From assembly GCF_001677475.2 (NCBI RefSeq), contig NZ_CP015229.1: a DNA stretch of 64,000 nucleotides, one strand, 5' to 3'. Origin of the DNA: Escherichia coli. GTDB taxonomy: Bacteria > Pseudomonadota > Gammaproteobacteria > Enterobacterales > Enterobacteriaceae. The notes under the pieces are model-generated. The model ran no database searches. It was not told where the DNA came from and saw only the letters and a list, made by a program, of their open reading frames with translations. Of the stretch, positions 33,641-47,566 are shown piece after piece (within the stretch, counting starts at the first letter, position 1; each line of letters begins with the position of its first letter). Made by a program: the position numbers and the translations under genes.

Positions 33641-34621
33641 CTAACGTCCTGCTTTTAACAATAACCAGATAAACACCGGCGCACCTAACGTTGCGGTGAC
33701 CACGCCAATAGGCAGCTCTGCGGCAGCTAATGCCAGGCGCGCTACAACATCGGCCAGCAGCAATGCGCTCGCCCCTGCCAGCGCGCAGCCTGGAAGTAAT
33801 ACGCGATGATCGGTTAAACCACACAGCCGGAGAATATGTGGGATCACCAGACCAATAAAGCCGATAGCACCCGCCAGCGCCACACTGACGCCAACCATCC
33901 AGCCGGTCACTGCGACCAACACATTGCGCCAGAACCACAGGGGTAAACCCAGTTGCCGCGCCGAGATCTCGCCAAGTGCTAACATATTCATCGGCCTGGA
34001 CTGACAACAGATCCACAACAACACGGGGATCAATGCCAGCATCAGCCAGCTTTGCCGCCAGTCTACGCCGCCAAAACCGCCCATCATCCAGTACATCAGC
34101 TGACGCAAATCAACAGAGGTGGAAAAGTAGATAGCCCACGTCATTAGTGCGCTACAGATAATCCCTAATGCAACGCCAGCCAGCAATAACCGACTGGTCG
34201 AAAGATGACGACGGGCGAAACGTAAGAGTATTAAAGTGATGATAAGCGCGCCAGCAATCGCACACAGCCCCAGCGCCCAGTTGGGGAGTTGCCCTTGCCC
34301 AAGCAATACCGCGGCGATAAGCCCCACGCCTGCGCCATTAGAGACGCCAAGTAGTCCAGGTTCTGCCAGAGGATTTTCAAACAACGCCTGCATTACTGCG
34401 CCGGATATAGCCAGCGCCGCACCAACCAGCAATACAGCCAGCGTACGTGGCAGGCGAATTTGCCAGACGAACAGTTCGCCACGAGGAGTAAACCAGTCAC
34501 CTGGCGAGATCCATTGTTCACCGGCGCAAAGGCTTAAGAGAAGCGCCAGCAGCATCAAAACTGACAGGCATAATAACCAGCGAATATTTTGTCGCTGTTG
34601 TTGGCGGGCAAGTGTCAGCAT
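33641..34621 (-). CDS. btuC: vitamin B12 ABC transporter permease
   Basis: 326-aa multi-TM ORF; FecCD-type permease; synteny. Confidence 0.95.
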
Positions 34622-34682
34622 GGTATCCGTTCTGCTGAAGTGTCATGGCGTTGATTTTACGGTGACTCTTCGACAGTGAAAA

Positions 34683-34704
34683 GAAAAAAGGCCGCAGAGC
34701 GGCC
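34683..34704 (-). terminator. intrinsic terminator (minus strand) near left prophage boundary
   Basis: Hairpin GGCCGCTCTGCGGCC followed by T6 on the minus strand, about 110 bp downstream of the stop of ORF 34814..35344. Confidence 0.55.
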
Positions 34705-34813
34705 ATAAACACAAACAAAAATCAATAAGTTAGATAATTATCAAAGACTTACAGACACACAAAAACACAGCAAACCACAACAAATAACATAGATGTGGTC
34801 AATTTGTGGATCA

Positions 34814-35344
34814 TCATCCAACAAATTTAGCAACAAATACAGCAACCGCCGCCGTGAAAATGGTTGTGCATACTGGCACAATAATGCCACTCCAACGCCA
34901 CTTCGTATTATCATCAACCTTGTCAAACCGCCGATTCATCTCATCCATAATCTTGTCAAAGCGTTTATCCATCGCTTCGGTAAGCTCACCCTTCAGGCTG
35001 TTAATGTCTGATTTGAGCTGCTCTTTCAGGTTAGCTGTATCAGATTTAAGCTCACCTTTCAGATTCGCAATATCGCATTTAAGATCACCTTTCAGATTCG
35101 CAATGTCTGCTTTGAGCTCACCTTTAACCTCACCAACATCGGCTTTGGTTGAGAGGTTTGTAGTGCGTTCAGCAAGCGTCGCAAGGTCGTTTCTTGTTAG
35201 CGATAAATCACCTTCGAGCCGCTCAATTCGCCTTTCAAGTTTATCTGACATTCCGCCTCCACTATCACCGCCTCCCCCACCGAAAGAGTTGCCAATGTCC
35301 TCACGAATAAGGGTTATGCCATGCTCACTTTTAGCATATGCCAC
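34814..35344 (-). CDS. tail-anchored coiled-coil membrane protein with tandem 11-residue repeats (unknown function)
   Basis: 176-aa ORF; Gly-rich N-terminus, repeats DIANLKGDLKC/DIANLKGELKS/DTANLKEQLKS/DINSLKGELTE, single C-terminal TM helix; abuts upstream ORF. Confidence 0.6.
   Translation of the reverse strand: MAYAKSEHGITLIREDIGNSFGGGGGDSGGGMSDKLERRIERLEGDLSLTRNDLATLAERTTNLSTKADVGEVKGELKADIANLKGDLKCDIANLKGELKSDTANLKEQLKSDINSLKGELTEAMDKRFDKIMDEMNRRFDKVDDNTKWRWSGIIVPVCTTIFTAAVAVFVAKFVG
34993..35128. repeat. tandem ~33-bp direct repeats inside ORF 34814..35344
   Basis: Repeated units of the form CACCTTTCAGATTCGCAATnTCnnnTTTnAGnT visible in sequence (4 copies, degenerate). Confidence 0.7.
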
Positions 35345-35758
35345 TCAGATTCCCTCCCAAACTATATATCCTTTGTCTCTTGCCCAACAAACAACTGTGT
35401 GGGCTGTATATGTGGATGTGAAGCCGCAATAAGAACATGACACTTCATACCGAGTATTGTAGATGTTAATGGGCTCGTTCTCCTTGTGTATGGGAGTGAC
35501 ATATTCCCAATCATTTGAATCATCATAATCATCAAGTTCAGGGTCTGTGCCGTGAACAACCGTATGTGGAATAAACAAATCTAGGCGCCCACACGAGAGA
35601 CAAGAGGTTCTGGCTCCTCTATCTTTAAGGAATTGAATAAATAATTTGGGCGAAATCTGTTGCAGAACCTGCAAATGCCCACGTTCATTATCATTAAGAG
35701 ACCTGTCTGCATATGGAAAATCATCAAATTTAAGAGGCTTCATATAAGGCATCTCCAA
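35345..35758 (-). CDS. zinc-ribbon-containing protein of unknown function
   Basis: 137-aa ORF with CLSCG...CSYCG Cys pairs; overlaps int 3' end and abuts the next ORF (operon-like); alternative start 35743. Confidence 0.5.
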   Translation of the reverse strand: MEMPYMKPLKFDDFPYADRSLNDNERGHLQVLQQISPKLFIQFLKDRGARTSCLSCGRLDLFIPHTVVHGTDPELDDYDDSNDWEYVTPIHKENEPINIYNTRYEVSCSYCGFTSTYTAHTVVCWARDKGYIVWEGI

Positions 35759-36722
35759 GGGGATTAAATCTCACCGCATCCTGCAGGTAATCCGGCGCAA
35801 GATGGGCATAAATCATCGTTGTCTGAATCTTTGCGTGCCCCAGAATTTTCTGGAGCGTCAGAATATTGCCGCCGTTCATCATGAAATGACTGGCGAAGGT
35901 GTGGCGCAGCGCATGAACAGCCTGGCCGTCAGGAACATCAGGTGCGACCGTTTTGATGACATCGCGAACCAATGGATAATCCAGCGTCGGAAACACCAGT
36001 TTCCCGCCCCGTTTTTTGATCTTTTCAAACAGGCTTTCAGAAATAGGAACGGTACGGTTTTTGCTGTTCTTCGTTTTTGAAAAAGTGATTCGACAATGAA
36101 GAACACGGCGCTGCTCCAGTGCCGCTACCTCGCCCCATCGCGCCCCGGTCGACAGAAGGATTTCGACAGCCAGCCGTTCATCGGGATTTTCAGCCAGTGC
36201 ATCCAGCAACTGAACACATTCAGACTTACTCAGATATCCCATTTCGCGCTCGTTAACCTTCATTCCTTTAAGGCCTTGAACGGGGTTATCGTTAAGAAAA
36301 TGGCCGGATGAGATGAGTGCGGTAAACATCGCGCTTAACGCCCCAATCTCTCGATTTATGGTGCTGGGCTGTATCCCCTGCTCTATCCTGGACACACGTA
36401 GCTCGGTGAGCATCGTTGTATTAAGTTTATGCACGCACGGGTCATCCATTGCCTCACTCAAGCGCAGCAATTTAAGGCGCGTGTTATGCCCTGACTTCAT
36501 TAGCTGGCCGTGGTATTTCCACCACAAGTCAATAAGCACCGACAGCGGACGGCGATCAATGGAGTTTCCTTTCCACTCATTGTTATGCTGTTGCGCCAGC
36601 ACCCACCGCTCATATAAAACTGCATCCGATTTCGTTTTAAATTTTTTGCGAATGCGTTTGCCTTTACGCCCCTCCGGGCGCATGTCAAGAAGATACCCTC
36701 CCGGAATTGATTTTATGCTCAT
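35730..36722 (-). CDS. tyrosine integrase, P2 Int-like
   Basis: ORF 35730..36872; start set at internal Met (MSIKSIPGGYLLDMRPEGRKGKRIRKKF) by resemblance to P2 Int N-terminus; C-terminal catalytic region TGARWGE...HALRHTFASHFMMNGG...LGH...IYAH. Confidence 0.9.
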   Translation of the reverse strand: MSIKSIPGGYLLDMRPEGRKGKRIRKKFKTKSDAVLYERWVLAQQHNNEWKGNSIDRRPLSVLIDLWWKYHGQLMKSGHNTRLKLLRLSEAMDDPCVHKLNTTMLTELRVSRIEQGIQPSTINREIGALSAMFTALISSGHFLNDNPVQGLKGMKVNEREMGYLSKSECVQLLDALAENPDERLAVEILLSTGARWGEVAALEQRRVLHCRITFSKTKNSKNRTVPISESLFEKIKKRGGKLVFPTLDYPLVRDVIKTVAPDVPDGQAVHALRHTFASHFMMNGGNILTLQKILGHAKIQTTMIYAHLAPDYLQDAVRFNPLGDALYEAS

Positions 36723-36771: not shown

Positions 36772-37083
36772 TTAGCCGGGCTGTGTGCCAGTCTTGCGGG
36801 GTTTTTGAGAAGGCGATGTGCTTTTTGGCCCATCAGGGGAGAGAGACGGACTGATCTGCCCAGCAGCCTCATTTGTTTCGTTACTCATCAACCACGTGGT
36901 GTATTTTTTAAAGTTCGGATGCATTGTGATTTTCAGTAAAACCTCCGTCCCCACACCTCTAATACCAGTCTCATATTGCTTAACTGTACCAACCGCAATA
37001 CCTATTGAATCCGCGAACTTTGCCTGGCTAAGTCCCTCAGATTCTCGAATTGCTTTTAGCTTCTTTGATATCTCTATTGACAT
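36772..37083 (-). CDS. P2 C-type immunity repressor (HTH, no peptidase domain)
   Basis: ORF 36772..37155; start set at MSIEISKK (ATG 37081-37083, AGG RBS); HTH plus motif KYTTWLMSNE...GQISPSL resembling P2 C. Confidence 0.75.
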   Translation of the reverse strand: MSIEISKKLKAIRESEGLSQAKFADSIGIAVGTVKQYETGIRGVGTEVLLKITMHPNFKKYTTWLMSNETNEAAGQISPSLSPDGPKSTSPSQKPRKTGTQPG

Positions 37084-37178
37084 GGTGTGCACCTGAATAC
37101 TATATTGGTTATCAGTTGAGTACCACTTGACGCCACAAAAAGCCACAAATAGCACCAGATTGAATAGGTTATCACATC
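37084..37178. promoter_or_regulatory. divergent early promoter/operator region (repressor vs cox-like operon)
   Basis: Intergenic between divergent C-like and cox-like genes; GGTTATCA repeated at 37107..37114 and 37167..37174; TTGACG -35-like element. Confidence 0.5.
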
Positions 37179-45020: not shown

Positions 45021-45356
45021 ATGCAACACATTGACAGAGAAAAAGCGCAGCGACTGATTGAGCGAATGGAAGCGCTGGCGAAAGAAGAAAATGTCAACAT
45101 CCAAAAAATAGCTGAATGTGGCCAGATAGTTCTTCGTCGTGAAAAAGACATCAAGCAACTGATGTCTGGCGAAATCAGCAAAACATGGACTTCAGGCAAG
45201 AAGACGATTTATTGCAGCTTCTGCAATAAATCCCAGCACGAAGTCATAAAGGTGATTGCCGGACCGTCTGTTTACATCTGCAATGAGTGCGTGGATTTGT
45301 GCAATGAAATTATCAGAAGAGAAGTGACAGACCATGAAGAAAAAACGCATGAATGA
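45021..45356 (+). CDS. ClpX-type C4 zinc-binding-domain protein (novel N-terminal helical region fused to ClpX-like ZBD)
   Basis: 111-aa ORF, GGGGGA RBS; residues [38 protein letters not shown] closely match E. coli ClpX N-domain (about 32 of 39 residues by my recollection); no AAA+ module. Confidence 0.8.
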
Positions 45357-45943
45357 CGAATTTGACGGCTTTTAATTTTATCGGGGCACACTGTCTCCCC
45401 CCGCACGAGGAAAACACGATGAAAAAATACGAATACATGCTAATGAAAGAAGCACTGCGGGCTGGTCTGGCTCCCTGTCCTGTATCCGTAGAAGCTGTTG
45501 TTGGGAACACGATTTTCCGAACGCTGCGAAATCGCGTATCCGTGAAGATGATTCACCAACCACCCAAATCTACCAGCATGATCTATCTGCCGCTGCCCGA
45601 GGCTATCAAACTTATGCGTTCGCTGAAATTTGCGATTTGGATGCAGACACAACTCAACAAAGCGGTGCAAAACACCTTCGTTAAGAAACTGATGCCGGAG
45701 CTTGCTGCCAGATGTGCAAAATGTACCAGACCCGCACTTCAATTTGATCTGTCATTGATTCAACAAGCTACGGAGGCAGAACTGTACCGCCTGTCACCTC
45801 TCCATGATGTTCACACGGAAGCCTCAGAAATGTTCCGGCTCATGTTTCAATTTAATTTTGCCGTTCGACGCACACGCGTTCAGGTCAATCGCATGATGCA
45901 GGCGCAGGAAGAGCTGACGCAACACAAAGGAGGCAACCAGTGA
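45353..45943 (+). CDS. hypothetical protein, translationally coupled to ZBD gene
   Basis: ATG 45353 overlaps upstream stop (ATGA); alternative start ATG 45416 with GAGGAA RBS; no recognisable motif. Confidence 0.55.
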
Positions 45944-46464
45944 GCAAGATTGACTATCAGGCATTACGCGAACGCTATTCACCTGCGCCAGTACCGAAAT
46001 GCCCTATTTGCGGCGAGGAAATGTCAATTCAGCGAATATCTGGAGCACAGGTTGTTTATGCCTGCTCCGGTTATGGTGATGATGGAGATTTCAAAATTGG
46101 TCGAACTCTTGCCGACGAACATTATGAAAAATCGCGCGTAACAGTGTTGGATGTCGGGGATCCTGAAGTATTGGCGCTACTTGATTGGCTGGAAACTAAA
46201 GACAACCGAATCGCTGAACTGGAAAAAATCGCCACTGACTATGCACTTAAATTCCAGAAAGCACAGGACGCATTAAAGCATGCCGCTTTGCTGCATAGCC
46301 GGACGGCGCAACAAACAAATAATTTTGCAGTATCGCTTCCGGACATAAGCGAATATTTCATTAATGACGTATTTCAGCCCTTGCGATACGAGCGGGATGT
46401 TGAAAGAGCCATCATAAAGGCTGGCGGAAAAGCATTGTGGCAGGAGAAACACGACGACAGATAA
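45940..46464 (+). CDS. hypothetical protein with N-terminal Cys-rich (zinc-ribbon-like) segment
   Basis: GTG start overlapping upstream stop (GTGA) with AGGAGG RBS; CPICGEE...YACSG; 174 aa. Confidence 0.55.
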   Translation: MSKIDYQALRERYSPAPVPKCPICGEEMSIQRISGAQVVYACSGYGDDGDFKIGRTLADEHYEKSRVTVLDVGDPEVLALLDWLETKDNRIAELEKIATDYALKFQKAQDALKHAALLHSRTAQQTNNFAVSLPDISEYFINDVFQPLRYERDVERAIIKAGGKALWQEKHDDR

Positions 46465-46516
46465 AAATAACACCTGATCTCCCTCAAACCAGGGCGATAA
46501 TCGCGCATCGCCCTGC

Positions 46517-46543
46517 TGCACAATAGTGCACAAATTTGCACAA
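46517..46543. repeat. three TGCACAA direct repeats at exact 10-bp phasing
   Basis: TGCACAA at 46517, 46527 and 46537; helical-turn periodicity suggests protein binding on one DNA face. Confidence 0.6.
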
Positions 46544-46614
46544 TTTTTTTGAACGACTTTTTGCCCTTCCGGCCCGCGTGGCGGCTGGATCCGTCAAGGA
46601 TCCGTGCGTGCACA

Positions 46615-46630
46615 AAAAAACGCGTTTTTT
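46615..46630. other. perfect palindrome AAAAAACGCGTTTTTT inside phage non-coding block
   Basis: Seen directly; preceded by GGATCCGT direct repeats at 46587 and 46598 and followed by G-rich segment. Confidence 0.6.
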
Positions 46631-46914
46631 CTGCGCGCAGGTGACGGGGGAACAGCCCGCGTTTCAGGGGGTAAATAGCGTTCCCTTAACGATGTCGCAG
46701 CGACACGACAGAATGGCCGTATCGCTCACGCTGAGCGTGAAAAATACGTGAGGGATTCTGATTTGATGGGGTGAAAGGTAAGGCCGTCAAAATCGCACTG
46801 AGGCGGCGAGAACATGCAGTCAGCGCGGTGGGATTGTGTAGAGTCTGGCCGTCGATGATAGCGATAAGTCGGAAGATGTCGTGAAATTATCTGATTGATA
46901 CGGGAGCTGGAGAG

Positions 46915-46941
46915 CCGGGGCATAAATTTTTTATGCCCCGG
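46915..46941. other. perfect 12-bp-stem hairpin CCGGGGCATAAA-ttt-TTTATGCCCCGG
   Basis: Seen directly; no flanking U tract on either strand so not a classical intrinsic terminator. Confidence 0.6.
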
Positions 46942-47041
46942 CGAAGCAGCAGACAAGCGAAGCGCGTCAGTGATGCGGCACCTTGCCGACCACACTTCAT
47001 AAGTGCAAAATACGAGCAAAGAAATCAATGGAGGCTGTTTT

Positions 47042-47566
47042 ATGGTCATTAATTACAAGCAGTTACGAGAAAAACGAGAGCAGGTAAAGGAAAGTTTTCG
47101 CCGCAATGAAGATCTGACCCCGCTTGTACACCTTGCCCAGGGAATTGTTGATGCTTATGAAATCTCTCTGGAGCTGCCATCACAGACATGGACGGATAGC
47201 GACGGTAATCGCCAGCATTACGTTTCATGCGGACTGGAAACAACTGAAGGGTTTCGCAGAATGCCTTTATCTCAGATTCCTGCCGCTACCCCCAAAGCAA
47301 GGGGCGGCAATGATGAGCGAAAACTGATTTTCAGCATTGAGACAGTGGTTGACGACACACCTGGCGAAGTCGCGTTCGTGCATACTCCTCTTTCGATCGC
47401 AATGTATAACGATGAAATACAGGTTCGCGTTAATAATAATATCGTGCCACTTAAAGAAGGTAATTCACCATACACCACCGTTTGTGAAGCCATTCAATAT
47501 TACGTTCTCTCTGAAATTGATAATCTCAAGCCTGACGGCACCCAGAAAATGGTTCAACTCTGGTAA
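47042..47566 (+). CDS. hypothetical protein (orphan gene between non-coding block and portal gene)
   Basis: ATG 47042 with GGAGG RBS (ORF track 47003..47566); followed by strong terminator. Confidence 0.55.
   Translation: MVINYKQLREKREQVKESFRRNEDLTPLVHLAQGIVDAYEISLELPSQTWTDSDGNRQHYVSCGLETTEGFRRMPLSQIPAATPKARGGNDERKLIFSIETVVDDTPGEVAFVHTPLSIAMYNDEIQVRVNNNIVPLKEGNSPYTTVCEAIQYYVLSEIDNLKPDGTQKMVQLW

What the first reader, a model, noticed from the sequence alone, without database searches (positions are those of the whole stretch)
34814..35758. Integrase-adjacent two-gene cassette: zinc-ribbon protein plus tail-anchored coiled-coil membrane protein
In P2 the integrase directly abuts attP, so nothing is expected between int and the prophage end. 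Here two co-oriented genes overlap or abut the int 3' end: a 137-aa protein with two CxxC pairs and a 176-aa protein with a Gly-rich head, four 11-residue coiled-coil repeats and a single C-terminal TM anchor (reminiscent of XhlA-type membrane proteins). This looks like a lysogenic-conversion or exclusion moron, for example a membrane-acting abortive-infection effector with its partner.
Basis: partly seen in the sequence, partly recalled or inferred. Interest (0 to 1): 0.6.

Follow-up and report, generated by a model that had tools for sequence, protein, structure and literature searches.

The report
Conserved two-gene prophage accessory cassette
Between the integrase and the attachment site of a P2-like E. 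coli prophage sits a real, widely conserved but uncharacterised gene pair (a small zinc-ribbon protein plus a membrane-anchored coiled-coil protein) that behaves like a mobile accessory cassette of temperate phages; it is a plausible but untested candidate for protecting the host against other phages.

Summary
Both ORFs lie inside the prophage, between the integrase stop (35730) and the 25-bp att core (34680-34704, the ihfA terminator). Empty-site genomes lose homology at 34704.

Both are real genes: dN/dS is 0.14-0.33, and the zinc-ribbon (ZnR) family has about 160 clusters at 50% identity. ZnR starts at 35743 (132 aa), not 35758.

The second gene is DUF1640/CCDC90-like, not XhlA-like. It has a variable short head, a poly-Gly linker, a beta-layer motif (LSTKAD), 11-residue repeats whose number varies between homologues, and a C-terminal TM.

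The pair is syntenic in all 16 loci with a complete partner gene. These include int-att in P2-likes, positions after cI or between cI and int, terminator-ended inserts in tail clusters, and a remnant with a decayed integrase.

ZnR and head co-vary as a unit. The coiled-coil/TM part assorts independently, with the joint inside the poly-Gly codons. A start codon with a Shine-Dalgarno-like sequence follows the poly-Gly in 16 of 16 loci, suggesting two isoforms.

No homology to any known defence, lysis or morphogenesis protein was found, and the ZnR fold has no known relative. The best guess is a lysogen-expressed exclusion or abortive-infection module, which is inferred, not shown.

The parts
34680..34704 (.). 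25-bp att core (AAAGAAAAAAGGCCGCAGAGCGGCC on the + strand). It is the ihfA intrinsic terminator and is reused as the terminator of the cassette on the minus strand.
   Evidence: Homology with about 5400 empty-site E. coli genomes stops at 34704. The same 25 bp recurs after ihfA at the other prophage end in TUM1880. The terminator scan finds it.
34705..34813 (.). Phage attachment-site arm region between the core and the cargo. It probably holds the P' arm and Cox sites, by analogy with P2.
   Evidence: It is conserved in the FDAARGOS_772 prophage, which carries different cargo; homology ends exactly at 34814. In P2 the interval from core to P' arm is about 113 bp. The function of the sites is inferred.
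34814..35344 (-). Gene 2, long form (176 aa, GTG start). It encodes a tail-anchored DUF1640/CCDC90-like coiled-coil membrane protein.
   Evidence: Evidence for the ORF comes and for homologues. In distant homologues the head is conserved at the amino-acid level. It keeps its own frame in L024. Its start always abuts or overlaps the ZnR stop.
35282..35344 (-). Variable N-terminal head (residues 1-21), which co-varies with the ZnR type.
   Evidence: Head types are listed. dN/dS is 0.54-0.73. AF2 predicts it disordered, with pLDDT below 50.
35252..35281 (-). Poly-Gly linker (GGGGGDSGGG). It is also a Shine-Dalgarno-like sequence for the internal start, and it is the mosaic recombination joint.
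   Evidence: Homology with the O103-type cassettes stops at 35272-35281. GGAGG lies 5-12 nt before the internal start in all loci.
35249..35251 (-). Internal start codon (M32). It would give the 145-aa short form that PGAP annotates.
   Evidence: The codon at this position is ATG in 14 of 16 loci and GTG in 2 of 16. One metagenomic relative has a stop codon between the poly-Gly and this Met.
35138..35155 (-). Beta-layer motif LSTKAD (residues 64-69) at the start of the stalk.
   Evidence: It matches the DUF1640 motif [aliphatic]-A-T-K-[polar]-[DE] (PMC4786415). T, K and D are conserved at 90% or more in the family alignment. AF2 breaks the helix here.
34981..35125 (-). 33-bp tandem repeats encoding 11-residue (hendecad) stalk repeats. 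Copy number varies between homologues.
   Evidence: TRF reports 4.4 copies. Homologue lengths of 112, 123, 134, 145 and 156 aa differ in steps of 11.
34829..34888 (-). C-terminal transmembrane anchor (residues 153-172), with 4 residues after it.
   Evidence: This is read directly from the sequence. AF2 predicts a helix. It is conserved in all partners.
35345..35743 (-). Gene 1: an acidic 132-aa zinc-ribbon protein (ZnR) of an uncharacterised family (phrog_4293).
   Evidence: The AF2 model has pLDDT 89.9. It has no significant structural neighbours of known function. PGAP leaves it unannotated in the closest genomes.
35730..36722 (-). P2-type tyrosine integrase. Its 3' end overlaps the ZnR start by 14 nt.
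   Evidence: Hits are. The PGAP coordinates in TUM1880 map to these window positions.
36772..37083 (-). C-type immunity repressor (HTH). It is the presumed first gene of the C-int-ZnR-CC transcription unit.
   Evidence: The ORF is and the annotation of relatives. The simple scan found no sigma-70 match on the minus strand between C and the cassette. Co-transcription is inferred by analogy with the P2 Pc operon.

Best explanation
This is a mobile, two-gene accessory cassette (a moron) of temperate phages. In this prophage it is inserted between int and the attP arm and is most probably transcribed with the lysogenic C-int operon.

**The proteins.**
- Gene 2 makes a tail-anchored inner-membrane protein whose bulk lies in the cytoplasm. 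From the membrane inward it has a DUF1640-like coiled-coil stalk, probably trimeric, that begins with a beta-layer and contains a variable number of 11-residue repeats. A flexible poly-Gly tether then leads to a short variable head.
- A conserved internal start codes for a second, headless isoform.
- Gene 1 makes a small acidic zinc-ribbon protein.

**Proposed roles.** ZnR plus head form the variable, specificity-determining unit. The stalk plus TM is the constant membrane anchor or effector.

**Proposed function (inferred, not shown).** In the lysogen the pair acts at the inner membrane against superinfecting phages, by exclusion or abortive infection. ZnR and head would recognise a phage or phage-induced cue, and the membrane stalk would execute the response.
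For: **Shown.**
- The cassette lies inside the att-bounded prophage.
- It is present in a circularised phage genome.
- Both genes are under purifying selection.
- Synteny is strict: ZnR is followed by a head/poly-Gly/LExRVxxLE/beta-layer/TM protein in all 16 loci with a complete partner gene (tabulated; contexts). Three further loci carry a partner cut by an IS element or by the contig end, and 19 IMG/VR loci show the same pair.
- It occupies accessory positions in unrelated phage backbones:
  - int-att in P2-likes;
  - directly after an S24 cI repressor in Enterobacter phage ENT1, the position rexAB holds in lambda;
  - between repressor and int;
  - within tail clusters, where it ends in its own intrinsic terminator.
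- Cargo at this position varies among prophages at the same att site. A preprint independently reports a P2 hotspot between a tail protein and CI (10.1101/2024.10.15.618418).
- The module stays intact where the integrase has decayed to a frameshifted remnant.
- The mosaic joint lies in the poly-Gly codons. All four combinations of ZnR/head type and stalk/TM type exist.
- A start codon follows the poly-Gly in 16 of 16 loci.
- The beta-layer motif is conserved.

**Inferred.** Co-transcription with C-int, trimeric state, cytoplasmic topology, an interaction between ZnR and head, and an anti-phage role.
Against: - There is no experimental phenotype and no homology to any known defence protein. PADLOC hits are coiled-coil noise against the ZorA tail and LmuB.
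- AF2 on a ZnR-linker-partner fusion did not dock the head onto ZnR; the head has pLDDT below 50.
- Linkage of ZnR and head could simply reflect physical adjacency, with the conserved poly-Gly/LERRIERLE DNA acting as the nearest recombination site.
- Promoters were not demonstrated.
- The head is only weakly constrained.
- The cassette is rare: 38 of 5426 complete E. coli genomes.
- Gly codon bias towards GGA in the linker is modest, 28% against 16% elsewhere. The internal start is therefore suggestive rather than proven.
Confidence: 0.42

Rival explanations
1. Lysogenic-conversion factor unrelated to phage defence. A membrane scaffold, working as MCUR1/CCDC90B scaffolds complexes in mitochondria, would modulate a host inner-membrane complex or stress response, with ZnR as its adaptor.
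For: The architecture is DUF1640/CCDC90-like. The module sits in the lysogeny operon. It persists in a decayed prophage.
Against: The variable ZnR/head unit, the repeat-number variation and the hotspot location are more typical of arms-race genes. No host partner is suggested by any data.
Confidence: 0.2
2. Toxin-antitoxin or addiction-type pair. The single-pass membrane protein would be toxic and ZnR would neutralise it, stabilising the prophage. This could also operate as an abortive-infection module.
For: It is a tightly coupled two-gene unit with stop-start overlap. It is a small membrane protein. A hok/gef gene lies at the other side of att in the closest relative. The module is retained after integrase decay.
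Against: There is no homology to known TA families. In L025 and L018, IS elements have truncated the membrane protein rather than ZnR. ZnR is acidic, so it is unlikely to be a DNA-binding autoregulator.
Confidence: 0.15
3. Lysis-timing accessory of the XhlA or holin/antiholin type. The two isoforms from the dual start would regulate membrane permeabilisation at the end of the lytic cycle.
For: The protein is tail-anchored with a conserved second start. There are weak PHROG hits to a holin (E 0.003) and a spanin (E 0.006).
Against: None of 21 members gives an XhlA Pfam hit. The cassette lies in the lysogeny operon on the opposite strand from the late genes, while a complete P2 lysis cassette sits elsewhere in the collinear relative. 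It is absent from P2 and from most P2-likes.
Confidence: 0.08
4. Regulator of the prophage's own integration, excision or induction. One possibility is membrane sequestration of a regulator.
For: It is adjacent to int, cI and att in most contexts.
Against: The same module occurs inside tail gene clusters and survives without a functional integrase. ZnR is acidic and has no DNA-binding fold match.
Confidence: 0.08

Closest known systems
DUF1640 / CCDC90-like family (Pfam PF07798; MCUR1, CCDC90B and prokaryotic relatives)
   Same: Single C-terminal TM with the bulk on the N-terminal side; a coiled-coil stalk that begins with the beta-layer motif [aliphatic]-A/S-T-K-x-D; PGAP gives gene 2 this name.
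   Different: The Pfam match is weak (23.8 bits; 4 of 21 members at E<=1e-3). Instead of a folded head domain there is a roughly 20-40-aa disordered head on a poly-Gly tether. Other differences are the hendecad repeats of variable number, the obligate ZnR partner and the phage accessory context. Other phage DUF1640 proteins (APSE-1 P47, Liberibacter SC1 gp26) have no ZnR neighbour.
Lambda RexA/RexB, and mycobacteriophage Sbash gp30/31 and Butters gp30/31 (from my own knowledge)
   Same: A two-gene pair of a soluble protein plus a membrane protein, carried in the lysogeny region next to the repressor or integrase and presumably expressed in the lysogen. In phage ENT1 the module sits exactly where rexAB sits relative to cI.
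   Different: There is no sequence or fold similarity. The membrane partner is single-pass and tail-anchored, not a multi-pass channel. No exclusion phenotype has been shown.
Superinfection-exclusion genes between int and repressor in lactococcal P335 prophages (Sie2009), and S. thermophilus TP-J34 Ltp (from my own knowledge)
   Same: Small membrane-associated proteins encoded next to int in the lysogeny module.
   Different: Those are single genes with an N-terminal anchor or lipobox that act on the outer face of the membrane. Here the protein is tail-anchored, lies in the cytoplasm, and has a partner.
P2 accessory hotspots (old/tin, Z/fun) and the 'third hotspot' between a tail protein and CI
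   Same: The same phage family and the same logic of variable cargo between conserved genes (PMC9122126; 10.1101/2024.10.15.618418).
   Different: This cargo family is not among the systems described in those papers or in PADLOC v2.
Zorya ZorA cytoplasmic coiled-coil tail
   Same: A membrane-anchored coiled coil projecting into the cytoplasm. It is the best PADLOC hit (E 2e-5), but only over the coiled-coil region.
   Different: There is no MotA-like domain and no ZorB, ZorC or ZorD. The similarity is compositional.

Membership tests
DUF1640 / CCDC90-like (PF07798) | Significant match to the family HMM | tested here: inconclusive
   The i-Evalue is 4.4e-5 at 23.8 bits, covering model positions 68-171 of 175. 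Four of 21 relatives match at E<=1e-3. Precomputed Pfam lists PF07798 for several homologues. PGAP names it DUF1640/CCDC90.
DUF1640 / CCDC90-like (PF07798) | Beta-layer motif [aliphatic]-A-T-K-[polar]-[DE] at the start of the stalk | tested here: met
   The window has LSTKAD and relatives have FATKAD or FVTKSD. T, K and D are conserved at 90% or more. The motif definition comes from PMC4786415.
DUF1640 / CCDC90-like (PF07798) | Single C-terminal transmembrane segment | tested here: met
   Residues 153-172 are followed by KFVG. The segment is present in all partners.
DUF1640 / CCDC90-like (PF07798) | Trimeric coiled coil | not testable with these tools
   Only marginal profile hits were found, and they are to trimeric coiled coils: reovirus sigma-1 (E 0.003), GCN4-Tcar0761 (E 0.005) and 6h9l (E 0.14).
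DUF1640 / CCDC90-like (PF07798) | Folded N-terminal head domain | tested here: not met
   AF2 gives pLDDT below 50 for residues 1-30, then a single helix before the beta-layer.
   No XhlA hit appears for the protein or for 21 relatives. The lysis cassette is elsewhere in the collinear relative.
Known anti-phage defence systems (PADLOC v2) | Match to a defence-protein HMM | tested here: not met
   ZnR gives no hit. The coiled-coil protein gives only coiled-coil-region hits, to the ZorA tail and LmuB.
Moron / hotspot cargo of temperate phages | Present or absent, or replaced, between conserved flanking genes in related phages | tested here: met
   Three cargo states occur at the same int-att position. 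The cassette is absent from P2. The arm region is conserved up to the cargo boundary.
Moron / hotspot cargo of temperate phages | Own promoter and terminator | tested here: inconclusive
   Intrinsic terminators follow the cassette in the window, L027 and L031. About 130 nt of non-coding DNA lies upstream in the tail-cluster copies, but no consensus sigma-70 promoter was found.
RexAB-like two-component exclusion systems | Exclusion or abortive-infection phenotype | not testable with these tools
   This needs phage-challenge assays.
PHROG 4293 (ZnR) | Match to the family HMM | tested here: met
   E = 8.1e-30 over residues 24-131. The family has no assigned function.

The most novel reading that the evidence does not exclude
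The pair is a previously undescribed two-component anti-phage or superinfection-exclusion system. In this reading, a membrane-tethered coiled-coil stalk is made as head-bearing and headless isoforms from a conserved internal start, and these co-assemble. A swappable ZnR-plus-head unit acts as the sensor, and stalk length is tuned by gain and loss of 11-residue repeats.
Probability: 0.3. Interest if true: 0.75.

Novelty: new variant of a known kind. Interest (0 to 1): 0.55.

Why it matters
- **A candidate from a little-explored hotspot.** If it is a defence or exclusion module, it adds a system from the int-att hotspot of P2-like phages. Its architecture is a tail-anchored coiled coil with a Gly-tethered head and a zinc-ribbon partner, and neither protein has a characterised relative.
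- **A handle on prokaryotic DUF1640.** Independently of function, it offers a tractable bacterial model for the prokaryotic branch of the DUF1640/CCDC90 family, which no paper I found characterises functionally. It provides an obligate partner, natural domain swaps at the poly-Gly joint and natural stalk-length variants.
- **An annotation gap.** ZnR is unannotated in the closest RefSeq genomes, and gene 2 is annotated only in its short form.

Tried and rejected
- **Family searches.** Pfam, NCBIfam and PADLOC gave no informative hit for ZnR and only coiled-coil noise for gene 2.
- **PDB by sequence.** The searches gave nothing or only marginal hits.
- **AF2 on a ZnR-linker-partner fusion with a partly paired alignment.** No head-ZnR docking was predicted. 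With only 9 paired rows and a monomer model this is inconclusive, not negative.
- **Fused ZnR-coiled-coil proteins (Rosetta stone).** None was found; all of the best 150 of the 160 hits are 180 aa or shorter.
- **Isolated phages.** Searches of the phage collection found the pair only in a Klebsiella circular P2-like element and in three Enterobacter phages. It is not in P2, 186, Fels-2 or PSP3-type reference phages.
- **IMG/VR scans.** The scan with the broad alignment failed. The narrower one returned only close relatives.
- **Literature.** Searches for DUF1640, tail-anchored exclusion proteins and P2 int-att cargo found no paper on this pair.
- **Rejected: the 208-aa plus-strand ORF at 34806-35432.** It is an antisense shadow of the repeat-rich gene.
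- **Rejected: read-through fusion of the two ORFs.** They share a frame in the window only because the GTG start directly follows the TGA stop. In L024 the frames differ.
Full report
**1. What is in the window**

The window is E. coli DNA. On the minus strand it runs nlpC, btuD, btuE and btuC (33641-34621), followed by a P2-like prophage.

Comparison with about 5400 complete E. coli genomes that lack the prophage shows host homology ending at 34704. The last 25 bp (34680-34704) are the ihfA intrinsic terminator. The same 25 bp recur directly after ihfA at the far end of the collinear prophage in strain TUM1880, so they form the att core.

Reading leftwards on the minus strand, the prophage end consists of:
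- the C repressor (36772-37083);
- int (35730-36722);
- a 132-aa zinc-ribbon gene, ZnR (35345-35743);
- a 176-aa coiled-coil/TM gene (34814-35344);
- 109 bp of arm region;
- the att core.

In P2 itself the attP core is 79 bp from the int stop and the P' arm overlaps int.

**2. Are the genes real?**

Yes, on several lines of evidence.
- ZnR homologues are all 132-134 aa and begin at MKPLKF. Four Cys and one Trp are invariant.
- A profile search of 1.84 billion representative proteins finds about 160 clusters at 50% identity. All of the best 150 listed are stand-alone proteins of 49-180 aa.
- Foldseek against AFDB50 shows the family across Enterobacterales, Aeromonas, Pseudomonas and a few others. 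Every hit is uncharacterised.
- Pairwise dN/dS is 0.16-0.30 for ZnR and 0.14-0.33 for the coiled-coil/TM part.
- PGAP does not call ZnR in the ten closest genomes but does in more distant ones. This is an annotation gap.

**3. Anatomy of gene 2**

PGAP calls a 145-aa protein starting at M32. Several observations favour the longer ORF.
- The upstream 31 codons are open in all relatives.
- They are conserved at the amino-acid level even at about 48% overall identity.
- They keep their own frame when that frame differs from ZnR's, as in L024.
- They always start at or overlapping the ZnR stop (TGAGTG, TAAGTG, TAAAATG, ATGGGTAA), behind a GGGAGGG Shine-Dalgarno sequence.

The head is weakly constrained, with dN/dS of 0.54-0.73.

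After the head comes a poly-Gly run, and then a start codon. The codon is ATG in 14 loci and GTG in 2, out of 16 loci spanning the family, with a GGAGG-like sequence 5-12 nt upstream. GGA codons are modestly enriched in the linker, 28% against 16% elsewhere. One metagenomic relative has a stop codon between the poly-Gly and this Met. I infer that both a head-bearing and a headless isoform are made. This is not shown.

Downstream of the internal start the protein has:
- a conserved LExRVxxLExD helix;
- the motif L-S-T-K-A-D, which fits the beta-layer signature that defines the start of the stalk in DUF1640 proteins (PMC4786415; conservation);
- 4.4 tandem 33-bp repeats encoding hendecads;
- a juxtamembrane Trp;
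- a 20-residue TM with four residues after it.

Homologue lengths of 112, 123, 134, 145 and 156 aa show that whole 11-residue repeats are gained and lost.

AF2 models a helix, a break at STK, an 80-residue helix and a TM helix. The head is disordered.

Pfam CCDC90-like matches only weakly, and XhlA does not match at all. Profile hits in the PDB are marginal and are all to trimeric coiled coils.

**4. The pair is a module**

In all 16 loci with a complete partner gene, ZnR is followed, abutting or overlapping, by a protein with the same plan: head, poly-Gly, start codon, LExRV helix, beta-layer and C-terminal TM (tabulated). Three further loci carry a partner truncated by an IS element or by the contig end (L018, L025, L022), and 19 IMG/VR loci show the same pair.

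| Context | Loci |
|---|---|
| int, ZnR, CC, att in P2-likes | window, L005, L002, L024, L054, L013 |
| Circularised Klebsiella P2-like genome | L007 |
| Directly after an S24 cI repressor in Enterobacter phage ENT1 | L008 |
| Repressor(-X)-ZnR-CC-int | L009, L029 |
| Inside tail or baseplate clusters after the tape-measure gene, with about 130 nt of spacer upstream and an intrinsic terminator downstream | L027, L031 |
| Next to ihfA, where int has decayed to a frameshifted C-terminal remnant and the pair is intact | L015 |

Other phage DUF1640 proteins (APSE-1 P47, Liberibacter SC1 gp26) have no ZnR neighbour. The ZnR-linked poly-Gly proteins are therefore a sub-branch of the family.

**5. 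Variation at this position**

Among complete E. coli genomes, 38 of 5426 carry gene 2. Fourteen have the window-type ZnR. About 23 have a 161-166-aa ZnR that is only about 25% identical, together with a different head, while the stalk/TM part is 96-98% identical. Homology stops at 35272-35281, inside the poly-Gly codons.

All four combinations of ZnR/head type and stalk/TM type occur:

| Locus | ZnR type | Head type | Stalk/TM type |
|---|---|---|---|
| window | I | B | alpha |
| L024 | I | B | beta |
| L002 | II | A | alpha |
| L054 | II | A | beta |

ZnR and head therefore travel together, and the stalk/TM part is exchanged. This fits a variable recognition unit on a constant anchor. It could also simply reflect where homologous recombination is possible.

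A third state at the same site is an unrelated single 131-aa gene. There, homology to the window ends exactly at the stop codon of gene 2.

A preprint independently reports a third P2-like hotspot between a tail protein and CI, which is this region on the circular map. The P2 hotspots explored by Rousset et al. are elsewhere.

**6. What it is not**

- PADLOC gives no hit beyond coiled-coil noise.
- NCBIfam gives none.
- PHROGs place both proteins in families of unknown function. The holin and spanin hits at E of about 0.003-0.006 are compositional.
- ZnR is acidic, with pI about 5 in most members. It is unlikely to be a nucleic-acid binder.

**7. Most likely mechanism**

*Shown:* a mobile, selectively maintained two-gene accessory cassette. 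It sits in lysogeny operons or as a terminator-ended insert in late operons. It is variable between otherwise collinear prophages, and it is retained in a decayed prophage.

*Inferred:*
- It is expressed in the lysogen. Here that would be from Pc with C and int. No minus-strand promoter was found between C and the cassette, and the att-core terminator ends the unit.
- The stalk is a cytoplasm-facing, probably trimeric, tail-anchored rod.
- ZnR works with the Gly-tethered head.

*Proposed function:* defence of the lysogen against other phages at the inner membrane, by exclusion or abortive infection. This is by analogy with RexAB, mycobacteriophage gp30/31 pairs and int-adjacent Sie genes. I put this at roughly 0.4.

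The rivals are lysogenic conversion of host physiology, an addiction or toxin-antitoxin pair, a lysis-timing factor and a regulator of the prophage's own switch. They are listed separately with their evidence.

**8. Novelty and score**

The kind of element is known: hotspot cargo, or a moron, in a temperate phage. The hotspot itself has been noticed by others. The cargo appears to be new:
- the ZnR family has no characterised or structural relative;
- it is obligately paired with a DUF1640-like tail-anchored protein;
- the poly-Gly linker also serves as an internal ribosome-binding site and a recombination joint;
- stalk length varies in steps of 11 residues.

I found no paper describing this pair. 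Function remains untested, so interest is moderate at 0.55.

Noticed in passing
window 45021-47566: The old/tin-type hotspot of this prophage, between the replication gene A and the portal gene, carries cargo different from the closest relative TUM1880, which has ParM, a partition protein, and HTH plus PIN. Here there are four ORFs: a 111-aa protein with a ClpX-type zinc-finger motif (CSFCNK...CNEC), a 196-aa ORF, a 174-aa ORF with a CPICG zinc ribbon, and a 187-aa ORF.
   Followed up: partly
window 36878-37166: The immunity region (C repressor N-terminus and operators) is not homologous to that of the otherwise collinear TUM1880 prophage, suggesting a different immunity type. A strong plus-strand promoter match (TTGACA-18-TATATT, 37077-37106) fits the early promoter Pe.
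   Followed up: partly
L015 2716-3728: In an unidentified enterobacterial genome the integrase is reduced to a frameshifted C-terminal remnant. The ZnR and coiled-coil genes are intact beside an ihfA-terminator-like hairpin. The ZnR protein of this locus is on at least 24 contigs; the three places shown share this arrangement.
   Followed up: partly
L022 3382-3479: In a distant metagenomic relative a stop codon separates the head/poly-Gly ORF from the Met that begins the coiled-coil part (…NRGGGG*MLGQF). The contig ends shortly after, so a sequencing error cannot be excluded.
   Followed up: no
L025 1449-1883 and L018 3371-3598: IS elements have inserted into gene 2 in two genomes, removing its TM or its stalk, while ZnR is left intact.
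   Followed up: no
L001 20653-21130 (TUM1880) and nine other near-identical RefSeq genomes: PGAP leaves the ZnR gene unannotated in the closest genomes and annotates gene 2 only from the internal Met. More divergent genomes do have ZnR called as a hypothetical protein.
   Followed up: yes
L023 1248-2840 (TUM1880, other prophage end, outside the window): On the ogr side of att the same prophage carries a Hok/Gef-family toxin gene and a 274-aa hypothetical gene. Both sides of attP therefore hold accessory cargo.
   Followed up: no
L009 2350-2979 and L013 2111-2947: In two other phages a further membrane protein sits immediately upstream of ZnR in the same operon. In L009 it is a 209-aa Flk_N-like tail-anchored protein, and in L013 a 278-aa protein with TM segments.
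   Followed up: no
window 34806-35432 (+): A 208-aa ORF lies antisense to gene 2. It is a shadow ORF produced by the repeat-rich, purine-skewed coding strand and is not a gene.
   Followed up: yes
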